A DNA stretch of 64,000 bases from Burkholderiales bacterium (GCA_023701005.1 JAMPXW010000001.1:35769-99768); one strand, 5' to 3'. Shown: positions 1-51,026, counted from the stretch's first letter. The notes: generated by a model from the sequence alone, not told the origin. Numbers and translations are program-made.

Positions 1-408
1 AAAACTTCCTCTGTCGTTCAAATTCATAGAATCAACTTCTTCCCATTCTCCTTTTTCTATTTTAACGAATACACCTTGGCCTAATCTTTCTCCTTTTTCT
101 ACTTTTACTTCTTCATCTTTAATATTATACACTTGTAAAAGAATTTCGTCAGAATCTCCACAAAAATCATTATCAATATACCCTGTACTTACTAAAAGAC
201 CCTTCCTTTTCAAAGTACTAGAACGATCTTTTATTTCCAACATATATCCTTCAGGGATTTTTATAATTACATTAGTAGGTAAACGTTCTATAGACTTAGA
301 AGGAATAACAATATCTACCCTAGAATACAAATCAAAAGCTACTGCACCTTTTGTGTGATATCCTGGTAACGGCAATGTTTTATCTATTCTTTTAATTTTG
401 ATTTTCAT
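1..408 (-). CDS. dut: dUTP diphosphatase, C-terminus truncated by window edge
   Basis: Not in the ORF track because it runs off the edge. Hand translation of the minus strand from ATG at ~406-408 gives MKIKIKRIDKTLPLPGYHTKGAVAFDLYSR...RSSTLKRKGLLVSTGYIDNDFCG, which carries dUTPase motifs. Confidence 0.75.
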   Translation of the reverse strand, partial: MKIKIKRIDKTLPLPGYHTKGAVAFDLYSRVDIVIPSKSIERLPTNVIIKIPEGYMLEIKDRSSTLKRKGLLVSTGYIDNDFCGDSDEILLQVYNIKDEEVKVEKGERLGQGVFVKIEKGEWEEVDSMNLNDRGSF

Positions 409-30137: not shown

Positions 30138-30410
30138 ATGAGAGATTATTTTGACAGAGCGCCAGGAATAAATAAGGCAAGAGAGATAGAACAACAATTA
30201 GAACTTTTCAAAAAAGACCCGGAAGAATTTTTTGAAAAATTAAAAAGACACTCTCCTAATGAATTTACTGTTAAAAGTGAAATAAGCAAATTACTAACTG
30301 AAATAAATTTTCCCCTCACAGACAAATCACCTGAGGGGAAAATATATTCTAGCTATGATTCTGAATATTTAAAAAATATATTAAAAAATGAGCTAAAAAA
30401 AGCTGCATAA
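30138..30410 (+). CDS. hypothetical 90-aa protein
   Basis: ORF in an operon-like arrangement after the two preceding small genes. Confidence 0.35.
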   Translation: MRDYFDRAPGINKAREIEQQLELFKKDPEEFFEKLKRHSPNEFTVKSEISKLLTEINFPLTDKSPEGKIYSSYDSEYLKNILKNELKKAA

Positions 30411-30421
30411 AAAAATTAGGA

Positions 30422-30492
30422 AATTCTTTTTTTGGCATACGCAATATTAATCTCGTGAGCCATATTCAAGTTCGAGTGCGAGCCATGAAAAA
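30422..30492. repeat. ~70-bp repeat, copy 1 (intergenic, upstream of tig); about 88% identical to 50499..50570 inside murI
   Basis: Hand alignment of ...GGCATACGCAATATTAATCTCGTGAGCCATATTCAAGTTCGAGTGCGAGCCATGAAAAAG against the murI segment. Confidence 0.5.
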
Positions 30493-30553
30493 GGATTACC
30501 TAATTTTTTTGTACAAATTTGAAAAAAAGCATCTTTTAGTATAAAGTAAAGAA

Positions 30554-31675
30554 ATGCAAATAAAAATAAACAAATTACCAAAAAGTGAGGTTGAAATCGA
30601 AGGAGAATTAAGTGCCGATGTGTTTGAAACGTATTTCAATAAAGCTTTAAAAGCTATAGGTGAGCATGTAGAGATAGACGGTTTTCGTAAAGGCAAAATA
30701 CCTGAAAATGTCTTACTCTCAAAGGTTCCAGAAGCTCAAATACTAGGAGAAATGGCAGAAATGGCTTTGAGTGAACACTATCCAAAAATATTAGAAGATG
30801 AAAAAATAGACGCTATATCACGTCCAGAAATTTCTATTACCAAACTTGCTCGCAACAATCCATTAGAATTCAAAATTAAGACTGCAGTTATGCCAGAAAT
30901 GACTCTCCCAAATTACAAAGATATAGCAAAGAAAGTCCTTTCAGATATAAAAGAAGAAGACAAAAAAGTAGAACCAACAGAAAAAGAAGTTGAAGACACG
31001 ATAATGGATATCAGAAAATCCCGTGCTCCAAAAATCCACATGGCGGCCGCGTCCTCCGAAGCTTTAGCGAAGGAGGAAAAAACTTCCCATGAACATAAAG
31101 AAGGAGAAGCTTGCGATCATGAAGACCATAAAGAAAAAGAAATAAAAGAAGAAGAACTCCCTCCTTTCAATGATGAATTCGTGCAGGCTCTCGGACCCTT
31201 CAAAGATATAACTGATTTTAAAGATAAATTAAAAGAAAATATAAAATTAGAAAAAGAAAATCAATTAAAAGAAAAAGCTAGATTAAAAATCGTTGAAAAA
31301 ATAATTGATGATACGAAAGTTGAACTTCCAGATATCTTAGTAGAAGTAGAATTGGATAAAATTTTATATAGAATGGAATCAGACATAACTCAAATGGGAT
31401 TAAAATTTGAAGATTATCTAAAACATTTGAATAAAACAGTAGAAGAAATAAGGAAAGAATTTAGAAATGATGCAGAAAAGAAAGCTAAGCTCGCTCTTGT
31501 TTTAAACAAGATAGCTGTAAATGAAAAAATAGAAGCTGATAAAGAACAAGTGGCCAAAGAAGTAGCGATGATCTTAGAACATTACAAAGATGCAGATCCT
31601 GAAAGAGCTCAAATGCATGCAGAAAATGTTTTAGTCAACGAAAAAGTTTTCCAATTCTTAGAAGAACAAAAATAA
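30554..31675 (+). CDS. tig: trigger factor, short form apparently lacking the PPIase domain
   Basis: N-terminal ribosome-binding domain (GFRKGKIP) and C-terminal arm with LPPFNDEFVQALGPF. An acidic/His-rich ~60-aa segment replaces the PPIase domain. Confidence 0.8.
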   Translation: MQIKINKLPKSEVEIEGELSADVFETYFNKALKAIGEHVEIDGFRKGKIPENVLLSKVPEAQILGEMAEMALSEHYPKILEDEKIDAISRPEISITKLARNNPLEFKIKTAVMPEMTLPNYKDIAKKVLSDIKEEDKKVEPTEKEVEDTIMDIRKSRAPKIHMAAASSEALAKEEKTSHEHKEGEACDHEDHKEKEIKEEELPPFNDEFVQALGPFKDITDFKDKLKENIKLEKENQLKEKARLKIVEKIIDDTKVELPDILVEVELDKILYRMESDITQMGLKFEDYLKHLNKTVEEIRKEFRNDAEKKAKLALVLNKIAVNEKIEADKEQVAKEVAMILEHYKDADPERAQMHAENVLVNEKVFQFLEEQK

Positions 31676-31685
31676 ATACACAATC

Positions 31686-31720
31686 AAAAACCTCCCGAGG
31701 ATAACCCTCGGGAGGTTTTT
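31686..31720. terminator. hairpin AACCTCCCGAGG-ATAAC-CCTCGGGAGGTT flanked by A5/T5; serves as tig terminator and as left REP-like hairpin of the transposase
   Basis: Seen directly. The same CCCGAGGATAACCCTCGGG palindrome recurs at 32379..32399. Confidence 0.6.
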
Positions 31721-32402
31721 ATGTTATGATTACTACATGGAACGAAAAACAAAACTCGAGGTAGAGGAATTCTATCATATATATAATCGTGGTGTAGAAA
31801 AACGAAAAATATTTCAAGTTTATTCTGATTACAAAAGATTCCTGGCTTTACTTTATATCGCAAACAATGACCAACCATTACACATAAAAGATTTCGGTTA
31901 TATGTCCCTCGAAGAAATCTTTAAACAAGATCGTGGGGAACAATTAGTAGCAATAGGAGCATATTGCCTAATGCCGAATCATTTTCATTTATTACTTACT
32001 CCCCTTGTAGATGGAGGGATATCAAAATTTATGTTAAAACTTCAAACCGGGTATTCTATGTATTTTAATAAAAAAAATGATAGAGTTGGTCCATTATTTC
32101 AAGGAACTTTCAAATCAAAACACGCAACCGATGATTTATATTTAAAATATATTTATGCATATATTCACCTCAATCCAGCAAAACTAAAAAATCCAAATTG
32201 GAAAACTCAGTCAAGAAGTTTTTTAACTGAACTTGAAAAATTTGTTGCTGAATATCCATATTCAAGTTTACAAGAATACATTTCTTTAAATTATAAGATA
32301 ATAAATCCAGCACCATTCCCCGTTGAAGGGAAAGACATAATAGATTACGACACTATAATAAACGATTTTTCTGAATTTCCCGAGGATAACCCTCGGGAGA
32401 TT
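31686..32402 (+). mobile_element. REP-associated tyrosine transposase (IS200/IS605-like Y1 HuH) unit flanked by identical palindromic hairpins
   Basis: A TnpA-like CDS lies between two copies of CCCGAGGATAACCCTCGGG. Confidence 0.5.
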
Positions 32403-32405
32403 TAA
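31737..32405 (+). CDS. IS200-like/RAYT Y1 transposase
   Basis: HuH motif MPNHFHLL, GPLFQGTF, catalytic Tyr region YIYAYIHLNPAK and RAYT-like YPYSSLQEY. The C-terminal codons overlap the right hairpin. Confidence 0.65.
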   Translation: MERKTKLEVEEFYHIYNRGVEKRKIFQVYSDYKRFLALLYIANNDQPLHIKDFGYMSLEEIFKQDRGEQLVAIGAYCLMPNHFHLLLTPLVDGGISKFMLKLQTGYSMYFNKKNDRVGPLFQGTFKSKHATDDLYLKYIYAYIHLNPAKLKNPNWKTQSRSFLTELEKFVAEYPYSSLQEYISLNYKIINPAPFPVEGKDIIDYDTIINDFSEFPEDNPREI

Positions 32406-37848: not shown

Positions 37849-37880
37849 CCTGTGGATAACCAGACAAGGGCGGCCCTTTT
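37849..37880. repeat. GC-rich dispersed repeat, copy A: CTGTGGATAACC-AGAC-AAGGGCGGCCCTT (contains perfect DnaA-box TTATCCACA on the minus strand)
   Basis: Seen directly. Related copies lie at 42011 and 62049. Confidence 0.5.
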
Positions 37881-38040
37881 GAAAAGGAACGACCTTTGCT
37901 AAACAAAAACCCTTATAAATTAAAGCTTAAATACTTGACTTTTTAGCTTAACTATGCTATACTTTTATTGTAGTTCTTTATAAAAATTTCACCCTTTTGA
38001 ATGACGCCATAGGCGGATTGAGTCCTAAATATCACAAAAA

Positions 38041-42010: not shown

Positions 42011-42043
42011 CTGTGGATAACCGGGTAAGGGCCGCCCTTCAAC
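42011..42043. repeat. GC-rich dispersed repeat, copy B: CTGTGGATAACCGGGTAAGGGCCGCCCTTCAAC
   Basis: Seen directly in the 56-bp gap between two co-oriented genes. Confidence 0.5.
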
Positions 42044-48773: not shown

Positions 48774-48781
48774 TTTAAAAT

Positions 48782-48822
48782 AAAAATAGCCCGCACTAAC
48801 ATGCGGGCTAAATATTTCACTA
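48782..48822. repeat. 41-bp hairpin repeat, copy 1: AAAAATAGCCCGCACTAACATGCGGGCTAAATATTTCACTA (terminator-like)
   Basis: Near-identical to 49429..49469. Confidence 0.5.
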
Positions 48823-49347: not shown

Positions 49348-49428
49348 CTCATTTTATTTTGAAAAGAATTTTTTTATTTCAAATAAACATTACCACCGAT
49401 TTTGGTACCAGTCAATGCAGGTTTTTTA

Positions 49429-49469
49429 TAAAAATAGCCCGCACTAACATGCGGGCTAAATACTTCACT
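49429..49469. repeat. 41-bp hairpin repeat, copy 2 (one mismatch versus copy 1)
   Basis: Seen directly. Confidence 0.5.
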
Positions 49470-49983
49470 AAACATTAAATTTAAAATAAATTGCCACCTT
49501 TTTGGCTTCGGCGGCCAGATCTCCTTTCTGTTGTACAATAAATTTACAAAACCAATCCAAATATTCTAGACTCCTAAAGCCTAACCCCCAATTTACACTC
49601 TCCAACAGAGAAAATTTTTGTTTAGAAATATGATACATCATATCTCTCGTCATTATAACTTTGCCTTCTTCTAGAAGAGAAGAAACAAAATTAGAAAACC
49701 TAGAAAACGATTCTTTATACTCTCCTGCTTTCATTTCCAGAGATCCAATTGTTTTCAACACATGATTTCTCTGTTCTTGAAAAGAAAGAATATCATCATC
49801 TAGAGAGAAACCAAAAATCTCAAAAAAAATTTTCTTTTCTTTCTCTAGTTCTTCTTTTTCTTGTACTTTTTTCTCACTTTCTCTTTTAGCTTTTAATATT
49901 GGATTAATTCTCCAAAAAAAATAAAAAGCAAAAAGTATTATACCGACAGTAACAACAACGGAAATAACATTCGAGAGTTCCAT
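49468..49983 (-). CDS. hypothetical N-terminally anchored protein
   Basis: 171-aa ORF with TM VISVVVTVGIILFAFYFFW. Confidence 0.4.
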   Translation of the reverse strand: MELSNVISVVVTVGIILFAFYFFWRINPILKAKRESEKKVQEKEELEKEKKIFFEIFGFSLDDDILSFQEQRNHVLKTIGSLEMKAGEYKESFSRFSNFVSSLLEEGKVIMTRDMMYHISKQKFSLLESVNWGLGFRSLEYLDWFCKFIVQQKGDLAAEAKKVAIYFKFNV

Positions 49984-50063: not shown

Positions 50064-51026
50064 TTAAAGCTTCACGACTTCTACTTTGGAGTTTTTGCCA
50101 GCCTCGCCTTTAGCAAGTCTAGGCGGGCCAAACCATTTTTGAGATAACTTTTTTATATTGGGAGTGATATCTGTGACGAGGATTCTAGCCTTTTTATTTT
50201 TTGAAAGTCTTTTTTCTAGCTCTTGATGTCGTGATAGATATTCTTTTAATTTTTTAGGAATTATTTCATCTTGAGAAATCACTACAACCTTTTTACCCAA
50301 AATTTTCTTAATCTCATTTTTATAAAAAGGATAATGTGTACAACCGAGGACCAAGGCATCCAATTTTTTATTAAGGAAAGGTTTTAAATATTTTTTTATA
50401 AATTGTATAGCCAAAGCTTTCTCCCCTTCTTCTATGAGTGGCACGAGCATTGGTGCAGAATTTTGAAATACTCGTGTATTTTTAGAAAAAGAATGGTTTG
50501 TTCTTTTTTCGGTATACGCAATATTAGTTTCGTTAACCACATTCAAGTTCGAGTGCGAGCCGTGAAAAAGAACTAAATCATTCTTTTTCTTTTTCAAATT
50601 AACCTTTTTAATCTCATCTGGAAAAGTATTTGAATTTATTGTCCCTGTTGTCCCAAGTATCCCAACCTTTTCATATTTTGCTGCTTCTTCTGCTGCAGGT
50701 ATGAGCACACCTAAAATTTTTCTCTCATGTTCACCCATCAATCTACGAGTATTATTATAATCTACTAAATATTCTTGTTGAATTCTTCTTAATGCTCTTG
50801 CTGAAGATGTATTGCAAGCAATGATAACGAGTGCACAATTTTCCTTCTTAAATAGATAATTCATCGCTTCTTTCGTAAATTCATATACAGCGTCATGAGA
50901 ACGATTGCCGTAAGGCACCCTCTTTGTATCACCTAAATATACATAATCATATTCTGGCATGGCTTTCCGTATAGCTTTCGCAATAATCAATCCACCTAGC
51001 CCCGAATCAAAAATCCCAATTTTCAT
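50064..51026 (-). CDS. murI: glutamate racemase carrying a ~45-aa in-frame insertion
   Basis: IGIFDSGLGGL, ACNTSSA and LGCTHYP motifs. An extra segment KKNDLVLFHGSHSNLNVVNETNIAYTEKRTNHSFSKNTRVFQNSAP sits between conserved blocks. Confidence 0.85.
   Translation of the reverse strand: MKIGIFDSGLGGLIIAKAIRKAMPEYDYVYLGDTKRVPYGNRSHDAVYEFTKEAMNYLFKKENCALVIIACNTSSARALRRIQQEYLVDYNNTRRLMGEHERKILGVLIPAAEEAAKYEKVGILGTTGTINSNTFPDEIKKVNLKKKKNDLVLFHGSHSNLNVVNETNIAYTEKRTNHSFSKNTRVFQNSAPMLVPLIEEGEKALAIQFIKKYLKPFLNKKLDALVLGCTHYPFYKNEIKKILGKKVVVISQDEIIPKKLKEYLSRHQELEKRLSKNKKARILVTDITPNIKKLSQKWFGPPRLAKGEAGKNSKVEVVKL
50499..50570. repeat. ~70-bp repeat, copy 2, inside the murI coding sequence and in frame
   Basis: About 88% identity to 30422..30492. 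Confidence 0.5.

What the first reader, a model, noticed from the sequence alone, without database searches (positions are those of the whole stretch)
50499..50570. murI carries an in-frame ~45-aa insertion built from a repeat that also occurs intergenically
Glutamate racemase motifs (IGIFDSGLGGL, ACNTSSA, LGCTHYP) are intact, but an extra segment (…KKNDLVLFHGSHSNLNVVNETNIAYTEKRTNHSFSKNT…) interrupts the region after GTTGTINSNTF. The DNA encoding LVLFHGSHSNLNVVNETNIAY is about 88% identical over ~70 bp to intergenic sequence at 30422..30492, in the same plus-strand orientation. This is either a repeat or MITE-like element that inserted in-frame into an essential gene, or a fragment of murI duplicated elsewhere.
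Basis: seen in the sequence. Interest (0 to 1): 0.5.

Follow-up and report, generated by a model that had tools for sequence, protein, structure and literature searches.

The report
In-frame palindromic repeat inside murI
The essential cell-wall gene murI of this tiny-genome (Nomurabacteria, CPR) bacterium carries an in-frame copy of a roughly 105-base hairpin repeat that also sits in four other housekeeping gene families and just after stop codons in related genomes. It resembles the palindromic elements of Rickettsia, which had not, as far as I could find, been described in this group.

Summary
Window 50499-50570 matches 30422-30493 at 62/72 bases, same strand, with a 21-nt exact core never seen in shuffles.

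The repeat is larger than reported. It is a ~105-nt hairpin at 50484-50590 in murI and at 30409-30510 between genes.

In murI it is a 38-aa in-frame insert (residues 144-181). The closest orthologs (92% identical, 272 aa) lack it. AlphaFold predicts a disordered loop on an intact glutamate-racemase fold.

Across 86 related sequences I found 95 copies:
- 44 lie inside long ORFs of only five families (MurI, LeuRS, MnmA, Tgt, a SAM methyltransferase). 43 of these are antisense and read in one frame (LFHGSHSNLNVVNExNIAYAEKS).
- The rest mostly lie 0-25 nt after stop codons.

The 69-nt centre is conserved even at synonymous sites (91-100% versus 49-64% in the rest of murI). The outer stem is locus-specific but stays paired, with strong covariation.

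It works like a Rickettsia palindromic element. It does not meet MITE criteria (no conserved termini) or REPIN-RAYT criteria. The mobilising enzyme is unknown. The murI-fragment alternative is refuted.

Verdict: a new member of a known kind, of moderate interest. The conserved centre is not explained.

The parts
50064..51026 (-). Host gene murI (glutamate racemase), 320 aa. The catalytic motifs are intact. It is 48 aa longer than the 272-aa orthologs.
   Evidence: ORF list. A 100%-identical database protein carries PF01177, and the close homologs are Nomurabacteria glutamate racemases. The predicted structure matches solved glutamate racemases with target-normalised TM 0.84-0.87.
50484..50597 (-). 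The 114-nt in-frame insertion relative to empty-site orthologs. It encodes residues 144-181, LKKKKNDLVLFHGSHSNLNVVNETNIAYTEKRTNHSFS. The boundaries are uncertain by a few bases because the flanks are A-runs.
   Evidence: DNA alignment of filled and empty murI sites and the protein alignment. Residues 151-181 have pLDDT below 50.
50484..50590 (+). Hairpin element, copy 1. Its orientation is defined by the strand reading TTTTTTCGG(C/T)ATACGC..GCGAGCCGTGAAAAAG, which is antisense to murI. The stem is about 33 bp.
   Evidence: DNA fold -23.2 kcal/mol, z -6.3. Inverted repeat I5. nhmmer hit 50486-50587.
50501..50573 (+). The 73-nt stretch shared with the intergenic copy (63/73 identical). It holds the family's conserved centre: an ~11-bp inner stem and a 45-nt apical region (alignment A8 columns 22-90).
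   Evidence: Among murI orthologs found by protein search, third-codon-position identity is 91-100% in the 66-nt (22-codon) centre tested, against 49-64% in the rest of the gene.
30409..30510 (+). Hairpin element, copy 2, intergenic. It begins at the TAA stop (30408-30410) of the 90-aa ORF 30138-30410 and ends 44 nt before tig (30554-31675). It runs A-tract, long stem, T-tract.
   Evidence: DNA fold z -5.4; I2. The same site holds an ordinary short terminator hairpin in L086 and a diverged copy of the element in L087.

Best explanation
The murI segment is one copy of a dispersed, non-coding, palindromic repeat family of about 105-115 nt. The family is confined, as far as sampled, to a clade of Nomurabacteria (Paceibacterota, CPR). 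Each copy has a conserved ~69-nt centre, made of an 11-bp inner stem (CTTTTTTCGGC / GCCGTGAAAAAG) closing a 45-nt apical region. Around it is a 15-20-bp outer stem whose sequence is specific to each locus but whose two arms stay complementary. The ends are an A-run and a T-run. Copies survive in two kinds of place where they do little harm: (a) in-frame in permissive surface loops of housekeeping proteins, always giving the peptide LFHGSHSNLNVVNExNIAYAEKS, and (b) directly after stop codons, where terminator hairpins normally sit. In murI the element adds a 38-aa disordered loop between helix 134-151 and strand 185-190 and leaves the racemase fold and both catalytic cysteine motifs intact. Shown here: the repeat family, its hairpin with covariation, its in-frame reading in five gene families, presence/absence polymorphism, and the loop prediction. 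Inferred: that it spread by transposition in trans, that it is translated, and that it is largely neutral or selfish at the murI site. The enzyme that moves it is not identified. Several features suggest a mechanism acting on one DNA strand, such as a Y1/HUH (IS200-type) transposase: scarless empty sites, no visible target duplication, a strand-biased orientation, and a 3:1 excess of G.T over A.C mismatches on one strand. This is only a lead (my estimate about 0.2).
For: Repeat and chance. Hairpin: DNA-fold z -5.1 to -6.3 for three copies. On 82 distinct copies, 91.3% of cells pair against 40-55% for slid controls, and 24 of 36 pairs change on both sides (353 such cells against 103+-13 in shuffles, 0/500 shuffles reach the observed value). 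Family size and context: 95 copies in 86 sequences. 44 lie in ORFs, 43 of them antisense and in one frame. The hosts are MurI, LeuRS (2 sites), MnmA (2 sites), Tgt and a PF10672 methyltransferase. One 598-kb contig carries 8 strict matches. Polymorphism: the empty murI site in the 92%-identical orthologs P0015 and P0017 is the same length as in distant orthologs. Filled, empty, inverted and other-element states are interspersed on the MurI tree. The tig-upstream site is filled in the window and in L087 but holds a plain terminator in L086. Tolerance: insert pLDDT is below 50 on a confident MurI fold. Not a protein domain: the exhaustive profile search found 2 tiny ORFs only. Not a known RNA. 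Intergenic copies: at least 30 of 48 lie within 25 nt of a stop codon. Known analogue: the RPE description in PMC10969869.
Against: No partner transposase, no conserved terminal inverted repeats and no clear target-site duplication were found, so mobility rests on distribution and polymorphism only. The coding copies represent only about 7 independent sites. The centre is far more conserved than synonymous sites of the host gene among orthologous copies. Plain selfish decay does not predict this; it hints at selection on the nucleic acid itself. Most copies came from a pattern scan that fixed 23 of the centre's bases, which inflates apparent conservation in alignment A8. The diverged L087 copy shows that more distant members exist. 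Translation of the insert is inferred from intact ORFs, not observed.
Confidence: 0.8

Rival explanations
1. The element is a functional structured nucleic acid kept by selection at each locus, not mainly a passenger. It could be a long bidirectional terminator or mRNA-end stabiliser, or an RNA or single-stranded-DNA hairpin whose conserved apical region is bound by a protein. It could also be a long-term vertically inherited replicator in the manner of REPINs. This overlaps with the best explanation rather than excluding it.
For: Third-codon-position identity in the centre is 91-100%, against 49-64% in the rest of murI and 38-80% in the arms. The stem shows strong covariation around a conserved loop. 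Intergenic copies sit at gene 3' ends, and one sits exactly where a relative has a terminator. The ends are an A-tract and a T-tract. The plus strand folds better as RNA in 72 of 82 copies, and G.T outnumbers A.C 74 to 25 in the variable stem.
Against: Close relatives lack it at the same sites or carry unrelated hairpins there. L006 keeps only a remnant arm. A terminator inside murI, leuS, mnmA or tgt would be harmful. The simple terminator scan does not call it. The wobble counts are not phylogenetically independent.
Confidence: 0.3
2. The element is a REP/REPIN-type sequence mobilised by the IS200-like Y1 (HUH) transposase encoded 1.2 kb from the intergenic copy (window 31737-32405).
For: There is a Y1_Tnp domain at E 4.9e-8. 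The gene is bracketed by identical hairpins, as RAYT genes are. Homologs occur in 4 other element-bearing loci. Empty sites are scarless, there is no target duplication, and the orientation is strand-biased.
Against: The hairpins flanking this gene and its homologs are short, GC-rich, lineage-specific and unrelated in sequence to the element. The element is never adjacent to the gene. L087 has the element upstream of tig but no Y1 gene downstream of tig. Half the copies are intragenic, and the conservation pattern (centre conserved, arms variable) is the reverse of a REPIN.
Confidence: 0.15
3. The conserved peptide LFHGSHSNLNVVNExNIAYAEKS is a functional protein module (a short binding motif) that selection has added to several enzymes.
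For: The same frame is used in 43 of 44 coding copies, and the peptide is conserved across five enzyme families.
Against: The same nucleotide sequence is equally conserved in intergenic copies bounded by stop codons. Synonymous positions are conserved too. Only two of the six frames are open in the consensus, so the shared frame is largely forced. The insert is predicted to be disordered. It is absent from the closest orthologs. The exhaustive profile search found no other proteins with it.
Confidence: 0.04
4. A piece of murI was duplicated into the intergenic region, or the match is an assembly artefact.
For: None beyond the two-copy match within the window.
Against: The ancestral-length MurI (272 aa) lacks the segment. 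The segment occurs in unrelated genes and spacers in dozens of independent assemblies.
Confidence: 0.01

Closest known systems
Rickettsia palindromic elements (RPE-1 and related families; Ogata et al. 2000, as summarised in PMC10969869)
   Same: Both are a short palindromic repeat dispersed in a small genome. About half the copies are inserted in-frame into unrelated housekeeping genes, always giving one conserved peptide, at positions compatible with the protein fold. The other copies are intergenic. No transposase is encoded.
   Different: The host phylum is unrelated (CPR/Nomurabacteria), and sequence similarity to RPEs was not tested here. The element is shorter (~105 against ~100-150 nt). 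Its centre is strongly conserved while the outer stem is locus-specific and co-varying. Intergenic copies cluster right after stop codons. The same protein loops are also used by other, unrelated palindromic families.
MITEs, including terminator-like ones such as SPRITE and Correia elements
   Same: It is small, non-autonomous, hairpin-forming and multi-copy. It is found at gene ends, where it can stand in for a terminator.
   Different: MITEs are defined by terminal inverted repeats conserved across copies and by target-site duplications. Here the termini differ from locus to locus, and no duplication can be shown in the A-rich flanks.
REP / REPIN-RAYT systems (Bertels and Rainey; PMC3116915, PMC3337134)
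   Same: Both form a ~100-nt long hairpin, appear to persist vertically at orthologous loci, and show an orientation bias. A Y1/IS200-like gene with flanking hairpins is present in the same window.
   Different: REPINs are two conserved REP arms around a variable spacer, and they are extragenic. Here the centre is conserved, the arms vary, and half the copies are intragenic. The hairpins flanking the Y1 gene are a different sequence.
ERIC / IRU elements of enterobacteria
   Same: Both are ~100-130-nt imperfect palindromes in transcribed regions. From my own recollection (not checked here), orthologous ERIC copies are more conserved than their surroundings.
   Different: ERICs are essentially intergenic and are not read in-frame as part of essential proteins.

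Membership tests
RPE-like in-frame palindromic repeats (functional kind) | Palindromic sequence that can form a long hairpin | tested here: met
   DNA-fold z -5.1 to -6.3. 91.3% of cells paired, with 24/36 pairs co-varying.
RPE-like in-frame palindromic repeats (functional kind) | Dispersed copies, many inserted in-frame in unrelated ORFs and giving one conserved peptide | tested here: met
   44 of 95 copies lie in ORFs of five families. 43 are in the same frame and orientation.
RPE-like in-frame palindromic repeats (functional kind) | Insertion compatible with the host protein fold (surface loop) | tested here: met
   By prediction only. Residues 151-181 have pLDDT below 50 on a MurI fold with TM 0.84-0.87 to solved racemases.
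Rickettsia RPE families proper | Rickettsiales host and sequence homology to RPE-1..10 | tested here: not met
   The organism is a Nomurabacteria/Paceibacterota MAG. Sequence comparison with RPE consensus sequences was not run.
MITE | Terminal inverted repeats conserved among copies | tested here: not met
   The outer 15-20 bp of each arm differ from locus to locus. Mean major-allele frequency is 0.62-0.66, against 0.93 in the centre.
MITE | Target-site duplication flanking the element | tested here: inconclusive
   The filled-against-empty murI alignment shows no clear duplication. The flanks are A-runs, so a 2-5-nt duplication cannot be excluded.
MITE | A related autonomous insertion sequence with the same ends | not tested
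   No candidate was seen in about 730 kb of fetched loci. No systematic search was possible.
REPIN-RAYT | Two conserved REP units in inverted orientation around a variable spacer, in an extragenic location | tested here: not met
   The conservation pattern is reversed, and about half of the copies are intragenic.
REPIN-RAYT | A RAYT (Y1 transposase) gene flanked by the family's own REP sequence | tested here: not met
   The Y1_Tnp gene at 31737-32405 is flanked by CCCGAGGATAACCCTCGGGAG, which is unrelated to the element. The same holds for four homologs.
Intrinsic (Rho-independent) terminator | Stem-loop followed by a T-run, placed just after a stop codon | tested here: inconclusive
   The position and the A/T-tracts fit. 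The stem is about 33 bp, AT-rich and has a 45-nt apical region, and the consensus scan finds no terminator.
Rfam RNA families | Score at or above a family's gathering threshold | tested here: not met
   Only tRNAs pass in the window. Both copies give only sub-threshold hairpin (miRNA-precursor) matches.
Glutamate racemase MurI (host gene) | Asp/Glu racemase domain, two catalytic Cys motifs, MurI fold | tested here: met
   PF01177 on the identical database protein. ACNTSSA and GCTHYP are present. Foldseek top hits are all glutamate racemases.

The most novel reading that the evidence does not exclude
The conserved 69-nt centre, held in a long stem of free sequence, is a functional single-stranded nucleic-acid module (plus-strand RNA or DNA) under purifying selection at each locus. 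It could be the recognition hairpin of a so far unidentified protein in a long-lived, vertically inherited replicator-host partnership of the REPIN-RAYT type. Alternatively it could be a new antisense or 3'-end regulatory RNA class of CPR bacteria that can even reside inside essential genes.
Probability: 0.25. Interest if true: 0.7.

Novelty: new member of a known kind. Interest (0 to 1): 0.5.

Why it matters
CPR bacteria have some of the smallest and most streamlined genomes known, yet here essential genes (murI, leuS, mnmA, tgt) carry translated copies of a hairpin repeat. The same protein loops are repeatedly occupied by several unrelated palindromic families.

Practical consequences:
- It explains part of the odd extra segments and length variation seen in CPR proteins.
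- It warns annotators and structure predictors that such segments are repeat-derived.
- It gives a second, independent lineage, after Rickettsia, in which to study how selfish hairpins enter proteins.

The conserved centre with co-varying, locus-specific arms is a concrete and testable hint that the hairpin is recognised as a single strand by some protein.

Tried and rejected
1. Peptide searches to count host proteins.
- A doubled-peptide profile against the word-indexed database returned only 3 tiny ORFs.
- The exhaustive search of cluster representatives returned 2.
- These results show that the peptide is not a widespread domain, but they could not list hosts. The DNA pattern scan did that instead.

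2. The genome-contig scan used the window's 20-mer, which turned out to be a minority variant (most copies have CAGGTT, not CAAGTT). It found only 2 loci and undercounts the range among species representatives.

3. Viral contigs gave no match.

4. Rfam gave nothing, either at gathering thresholds or in permissive mode.

5. The idea that the outer arms are inverted copies of the target flank was rejected. Empty murI sites contain neither arm.

6. The idea that only the centre is mobile and lands in the loops of pre-existing terminators was not supported. Empty murI sites lack the arms. Arms of unrelated loci share a residual AAAGCAGTGC-like consensus. The L086 terminator stem is unrelated to the window's arms.

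7. A link to the neighbouring Y1 transposase through shared hairpins was not found.

8. Orientation relative to replication rather than transcription could not be separated with loci of about 10 kb.

9. An inner helix at A8 columns 48-51 / 69-72 is not supported. One of its four pairs is unpaired in 47 of 82 copies.

Full report
**1. The observation**

murI lies at window 50064..51026 on the minus strand and encodes 320 aa with the racemase motifs intact. Window 50499-50570 and 30422-30493 are 62/72 identical on the same strand. The shared 21-mer ATTCAAGTTCGAGTGCGAGCC occurs exactly twice in the window. It occurs in none of 100 dinucleotide-preserving shuffles, even with three mismatches allowed.

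Two corrections apply. First, the unit is not 70 bp. It is a hairpin of about 105 nt, at 50484-50590 and 30409-30510. Its DNA-fold z-scores are -5.1 to -6.3. Second, the insert in MurI is 38 aa (residues 144-181; 114 nt, 50484-50597). The other 10 extra residues (PPRLAKGEAG, residues 302-311) are a separate small insert.

**2. Organism and orthologs**

The MurI protein is identical to one from a 277-kb MAG contig that NCBI labels Burkholderiales. All close homologs are Nomurabacteria/Paceibacterota, that is, CPR.

I aligned 34 orthologs:
- Many are 272 aa with nothing at this position, including the two closest to the window (P0015 and P0017, 92% identical).
- Many others, down to 68-70% identity, carry the same insert (LxLFHGSHSNLNVVNExNIAYAEKST).
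- Still others carry unrelated inserts at the same point.

The DNA alignment of filled and empty sites shows a clean 114-nt gap between EIKK(I/V)N and KNT. On a MurI neighbour-joining tree the filled, empty, inverted and other-element states are interspersed. A single-protein tree is weak evidence. Even so, the site clearly turns over, and all the empty sites in the alignment have the same gapless length.

**3. Effect on the protein**

I ran AlphaFold with the ortholog alignment. It gives a confident MurI fold (mean pLDDT 76.7) in which residues 151-181 and 303-311 have pLDDT below 50. Foldseek places the model on solved glutamate racemases of about 265 residues, with target-normalised TM 0.84-0.87. 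The full fold is therefore present, and both inserts are predicted to be disordered additions. This is a prediction, not a measurement.

**4. The family**

An exact-word scan of species-representative genomes found the element inside leuS of two Patescibacteria. A tolerant pattern, ATACGCAANATTAN{22,26}GAGTGCGAGCC, found 76 metagenomic loci and no viral contig.

nhmmer over all fetched DNA (86 sequences, 727 kb) found 95 copies, 82 of them distinct.

Coding copies:
- 44 copies lie inside long open frames.
- 43 of the 44 are antisense to the element's defined orientation and are read in one frame as LFHGSHSNLNVVNExNIAYAEKS.
- Their hosts fall into only five families: MurI, LeuRS (two sites), MnmA (two sites, both filled in L038 and L054), Tgt, and a PF10672 SAM methyltransferase.
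- The one sense copy (L016 murI, the same state as P0024) has the murI-type arms. It is most simply an in-situ inversion of the centre between the inverted arms.

One 598-kb contig has eight strict matches, four coding and four intergenic.

Non-coding copies:
- They are mostly 0-25 nt after a stop codon.
- 23 lie between co-directional genes in the antisense orientation, 12 between convergent genes, 5 in sense orientation (the window's copy is one of these), and 4 between divergent genes.

**5. Anatomy and evolution of the element**

I aligned the 82 distinct copies without gaps (A8).
- Columns 22-90 are strongly conserved (mean major-allele frequency 0.93).
- The outer about 20 columns on each side are not conserved (0.62-0.66).
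- Within every copy, however, the two outer arms are complementary.

On the hairpin I specified, 91.3% of cells pair, against 40-55% when the partner is slid by 1-3 columns. 24 of 36 pairs change on both sides. There are 353 doubly changed cells, against 103+-13 in shuffles, and 0 of 500 shuffles reach the observed value.

Arms are shared by orthologous loci. All murI copies are variants of A(A/G)AAAAATGATTTG(T)GC. Arms differ between loci within one genome. They therefore evolve in place, with compensation.

A small inner helix (columns 48-51 / 69-72) is not supported.

For the four murI orthologs obtained by protein search, which are not biased by the DNA pattern, third-codon-position identity is:
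- 91-100% in the centre,
- 38-80% in the arms,
- 49-64% in the rest of murI.

The centre is thus constrained at the nucleotide level, or is kept uniform by some process. The arms drift while staying paired.

The plus strand folds better as RNA in 72 of 82 copies. In the variable stem, G.T mismatches outnumber A.C 74 to 25 on that strand. This suggests that one particular strand is the form that matters. These counts are not phylogenetically independent.

**6. The intergenic copy**

It starts at the TAA of the 90-aa ORF 30138-30410 and ends 44 nt before tig. In L086 (tig 86% identical) the same spacer holds an ordinary short terminator, AAAAAATCCTCC-TTCGCTC-GGAGGATTTTTT. In L087 (tig 79% identical) it holds a diverged copy of the element, with a small deletion.

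The element therefore occupies the terminator's place there, and with its A-tract, stem and T-tract it may act as one. The simple consensus scan does not call it a terminator, because the apical region is 45 nt.

**7. What moves it**

This is not settled. The window encodes an IS200-like Y1 transposase at 31737-32405 (Pfam E 4.9e-8). The gene is bracketed by identical hairpins, CCCGAGGATAACCCTCGGGAG, which is the layout of a RAYT gene. Homologs occur in four other loci, and each has its own different short flanking hairpins.

None of these hairpins resembles the element, and the element is never adjacent to these genes. The link is therefore only circumstantial. It rests on scarless empty sites, no visible target duplication, and strand bias.

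I rejected two other mechanisms. In one, the arms are copied from the target flank. In the other, only the centre is mobile and lands in the loops of existing terminators. Empty murI sites contain neither arm, and arms of unrelated loci share a residual consensus.

**8. Comparison with known systems**

The element works like the Rickettsia palindromic elements, which are palindromic, dispersed, inserted in-frame into housekeeping genes with one conserved peptide, and compatible with the protein fold (PMC10969869, read). It is not a member of those families, because the host is a CPR bacterium. Sequence similarity to RPEs was not tested.
- It fails the MITE criteria: it has no conserved terminal repeats, and a target duplication cannot be shown.
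- It fails the REPIN-RAYT criteria: the conservation pattern is reversed, half the copies are intragenic, and the Y1 gene's flanking hairpins are a different sequence.
- It matches no Rfam family.
- The peptide is not a protein domain found elsewhere.

Four full-text searches found no paper describing such elements in CPR/Patescibacteria. That covers only the open-access library searched.

**9. Other element families at the same sites**

The same permissive loops are used by other palindromic families:
- In L088 murI there is an 87-nt palindrome encoding LLVEEGVGGGDLKKNHFALKGTPPQKGG at the same site, and a second one encoding PVRSRSPQGDRNTRLLTRMASNG elsewhere in the gene.
- An RTPFxFELPEGPxPV...GRAQGRKIGR element occurs at both LeuRS sites in different genomes.
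- L006 murI keeps one remnant arm of the element next to an unrelated GC-rich hairpin.

In-frame hairpin insertion therefore looks like a general feature of these genomes.

**10. Verdict**

The element is a new member of a known kind (RPE-like in-frame palindromic repeats) in a phylum where I could not find it described.

The unexplained part is the nucleotide-level conservation of the centre together with free but co-varying arms. That part carries the novelty: I give about 0.25 that it is a selected single-stranded recognition module, not a passive passenger. Overall interest is 0.5.

Noticed in passing
window 31737-32405 (+), with hairpins at 31694-31714 and 32379-32399: An IS200-like Y1 (HUH) transposase gene is bracketed by two identical copies of CCCGAGGATAACCCTCGGGAG, the layout of a RAYT with its REP. 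It is syntenic (downstream of tig) in a relative's contig and absent in another. Homologs in L085, L071, L065 and L014 each have their own different flanking hairpins.
   Followed up: partly
window ~50094-50123 (murI residues 302-311): A second, separate in-frame insert, PPRLAKGEAG, is encoded by a small GC-rich hairpin. It is absent from most orthologs and has pLDDT below 50. Similar AKGQTG and PAGEAG inserts occur in P0025 MurI and L072 LeuRS.
   Followed up: partly
L088 3435-3521 and 3647-3719; LeuRS of L011 and L065: Unrelated palindromic elements are inserted in-frame at the same or nearby protein loops in relatives: LLVEEGVGGGDLKKNHFALKGTPPQKGG and PVRSRSPQGDRNTRLLTRMASNG in murI, and RTPFxFELPEGPxPV..GRAQGRKIGR at both LeuRS sites. 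This suggests several hairpin families share permissive loops.
   Followed up: partly
window 30280-30370: A 39-nt imperfect inverted repeat (74% complementary, centred on CCCCTCA..TGAGGGG) lies inside the 90-aa ORF just upstream of the intergenic element. It may be another small intragenic hairpin.
   Followed up: no
window 37850-37882, 42011-42043, 62048-62080: There are three copies of a 33-nt GC-rich repeat, CTGTGGATAACCGGGTAAGGGCCGCCCTTCAAC. It contains the reverse complement of a perfect DnaA box (TGTGGATAA) next to a short GC hairpin.
   Followed up: no
window 48780-48822 and 49428-49470: A 43-nt hairpin-containing repeat (ATAAAAATAGCCCGCACTAACATGCGGGCTAAATA..) is present twice at 98% identity, 648 bp apart. 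The copies follow two different small ORFs downstream of murI.
   Followed up: no
L086 3915-3960 against window 30409-30510: At the orthologous spacer upstream of tig, a close relative has a classic short intrinsic terminator where the window has the 105-nt element.
   Followed up: yes
L009 10001-10558: In a single-cell genome (GCA_000380845.1) the PF10672 methyltransferase is called as two ORFs (71 aa and 107 aa), split at the element. Four metagenomic orthologs read through it intact. This could be a real disruption or an assembly frameshift.
   Followed up: no
whole window (source record): NCBI names the source MAG 'Burkholderiales bacterium'. All close homologs of MurI and trigger factor are from Nomurabacteria/Paceibacterota, and the window is 30-37% GC. 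The label looks wrong.
   Followed up: partly
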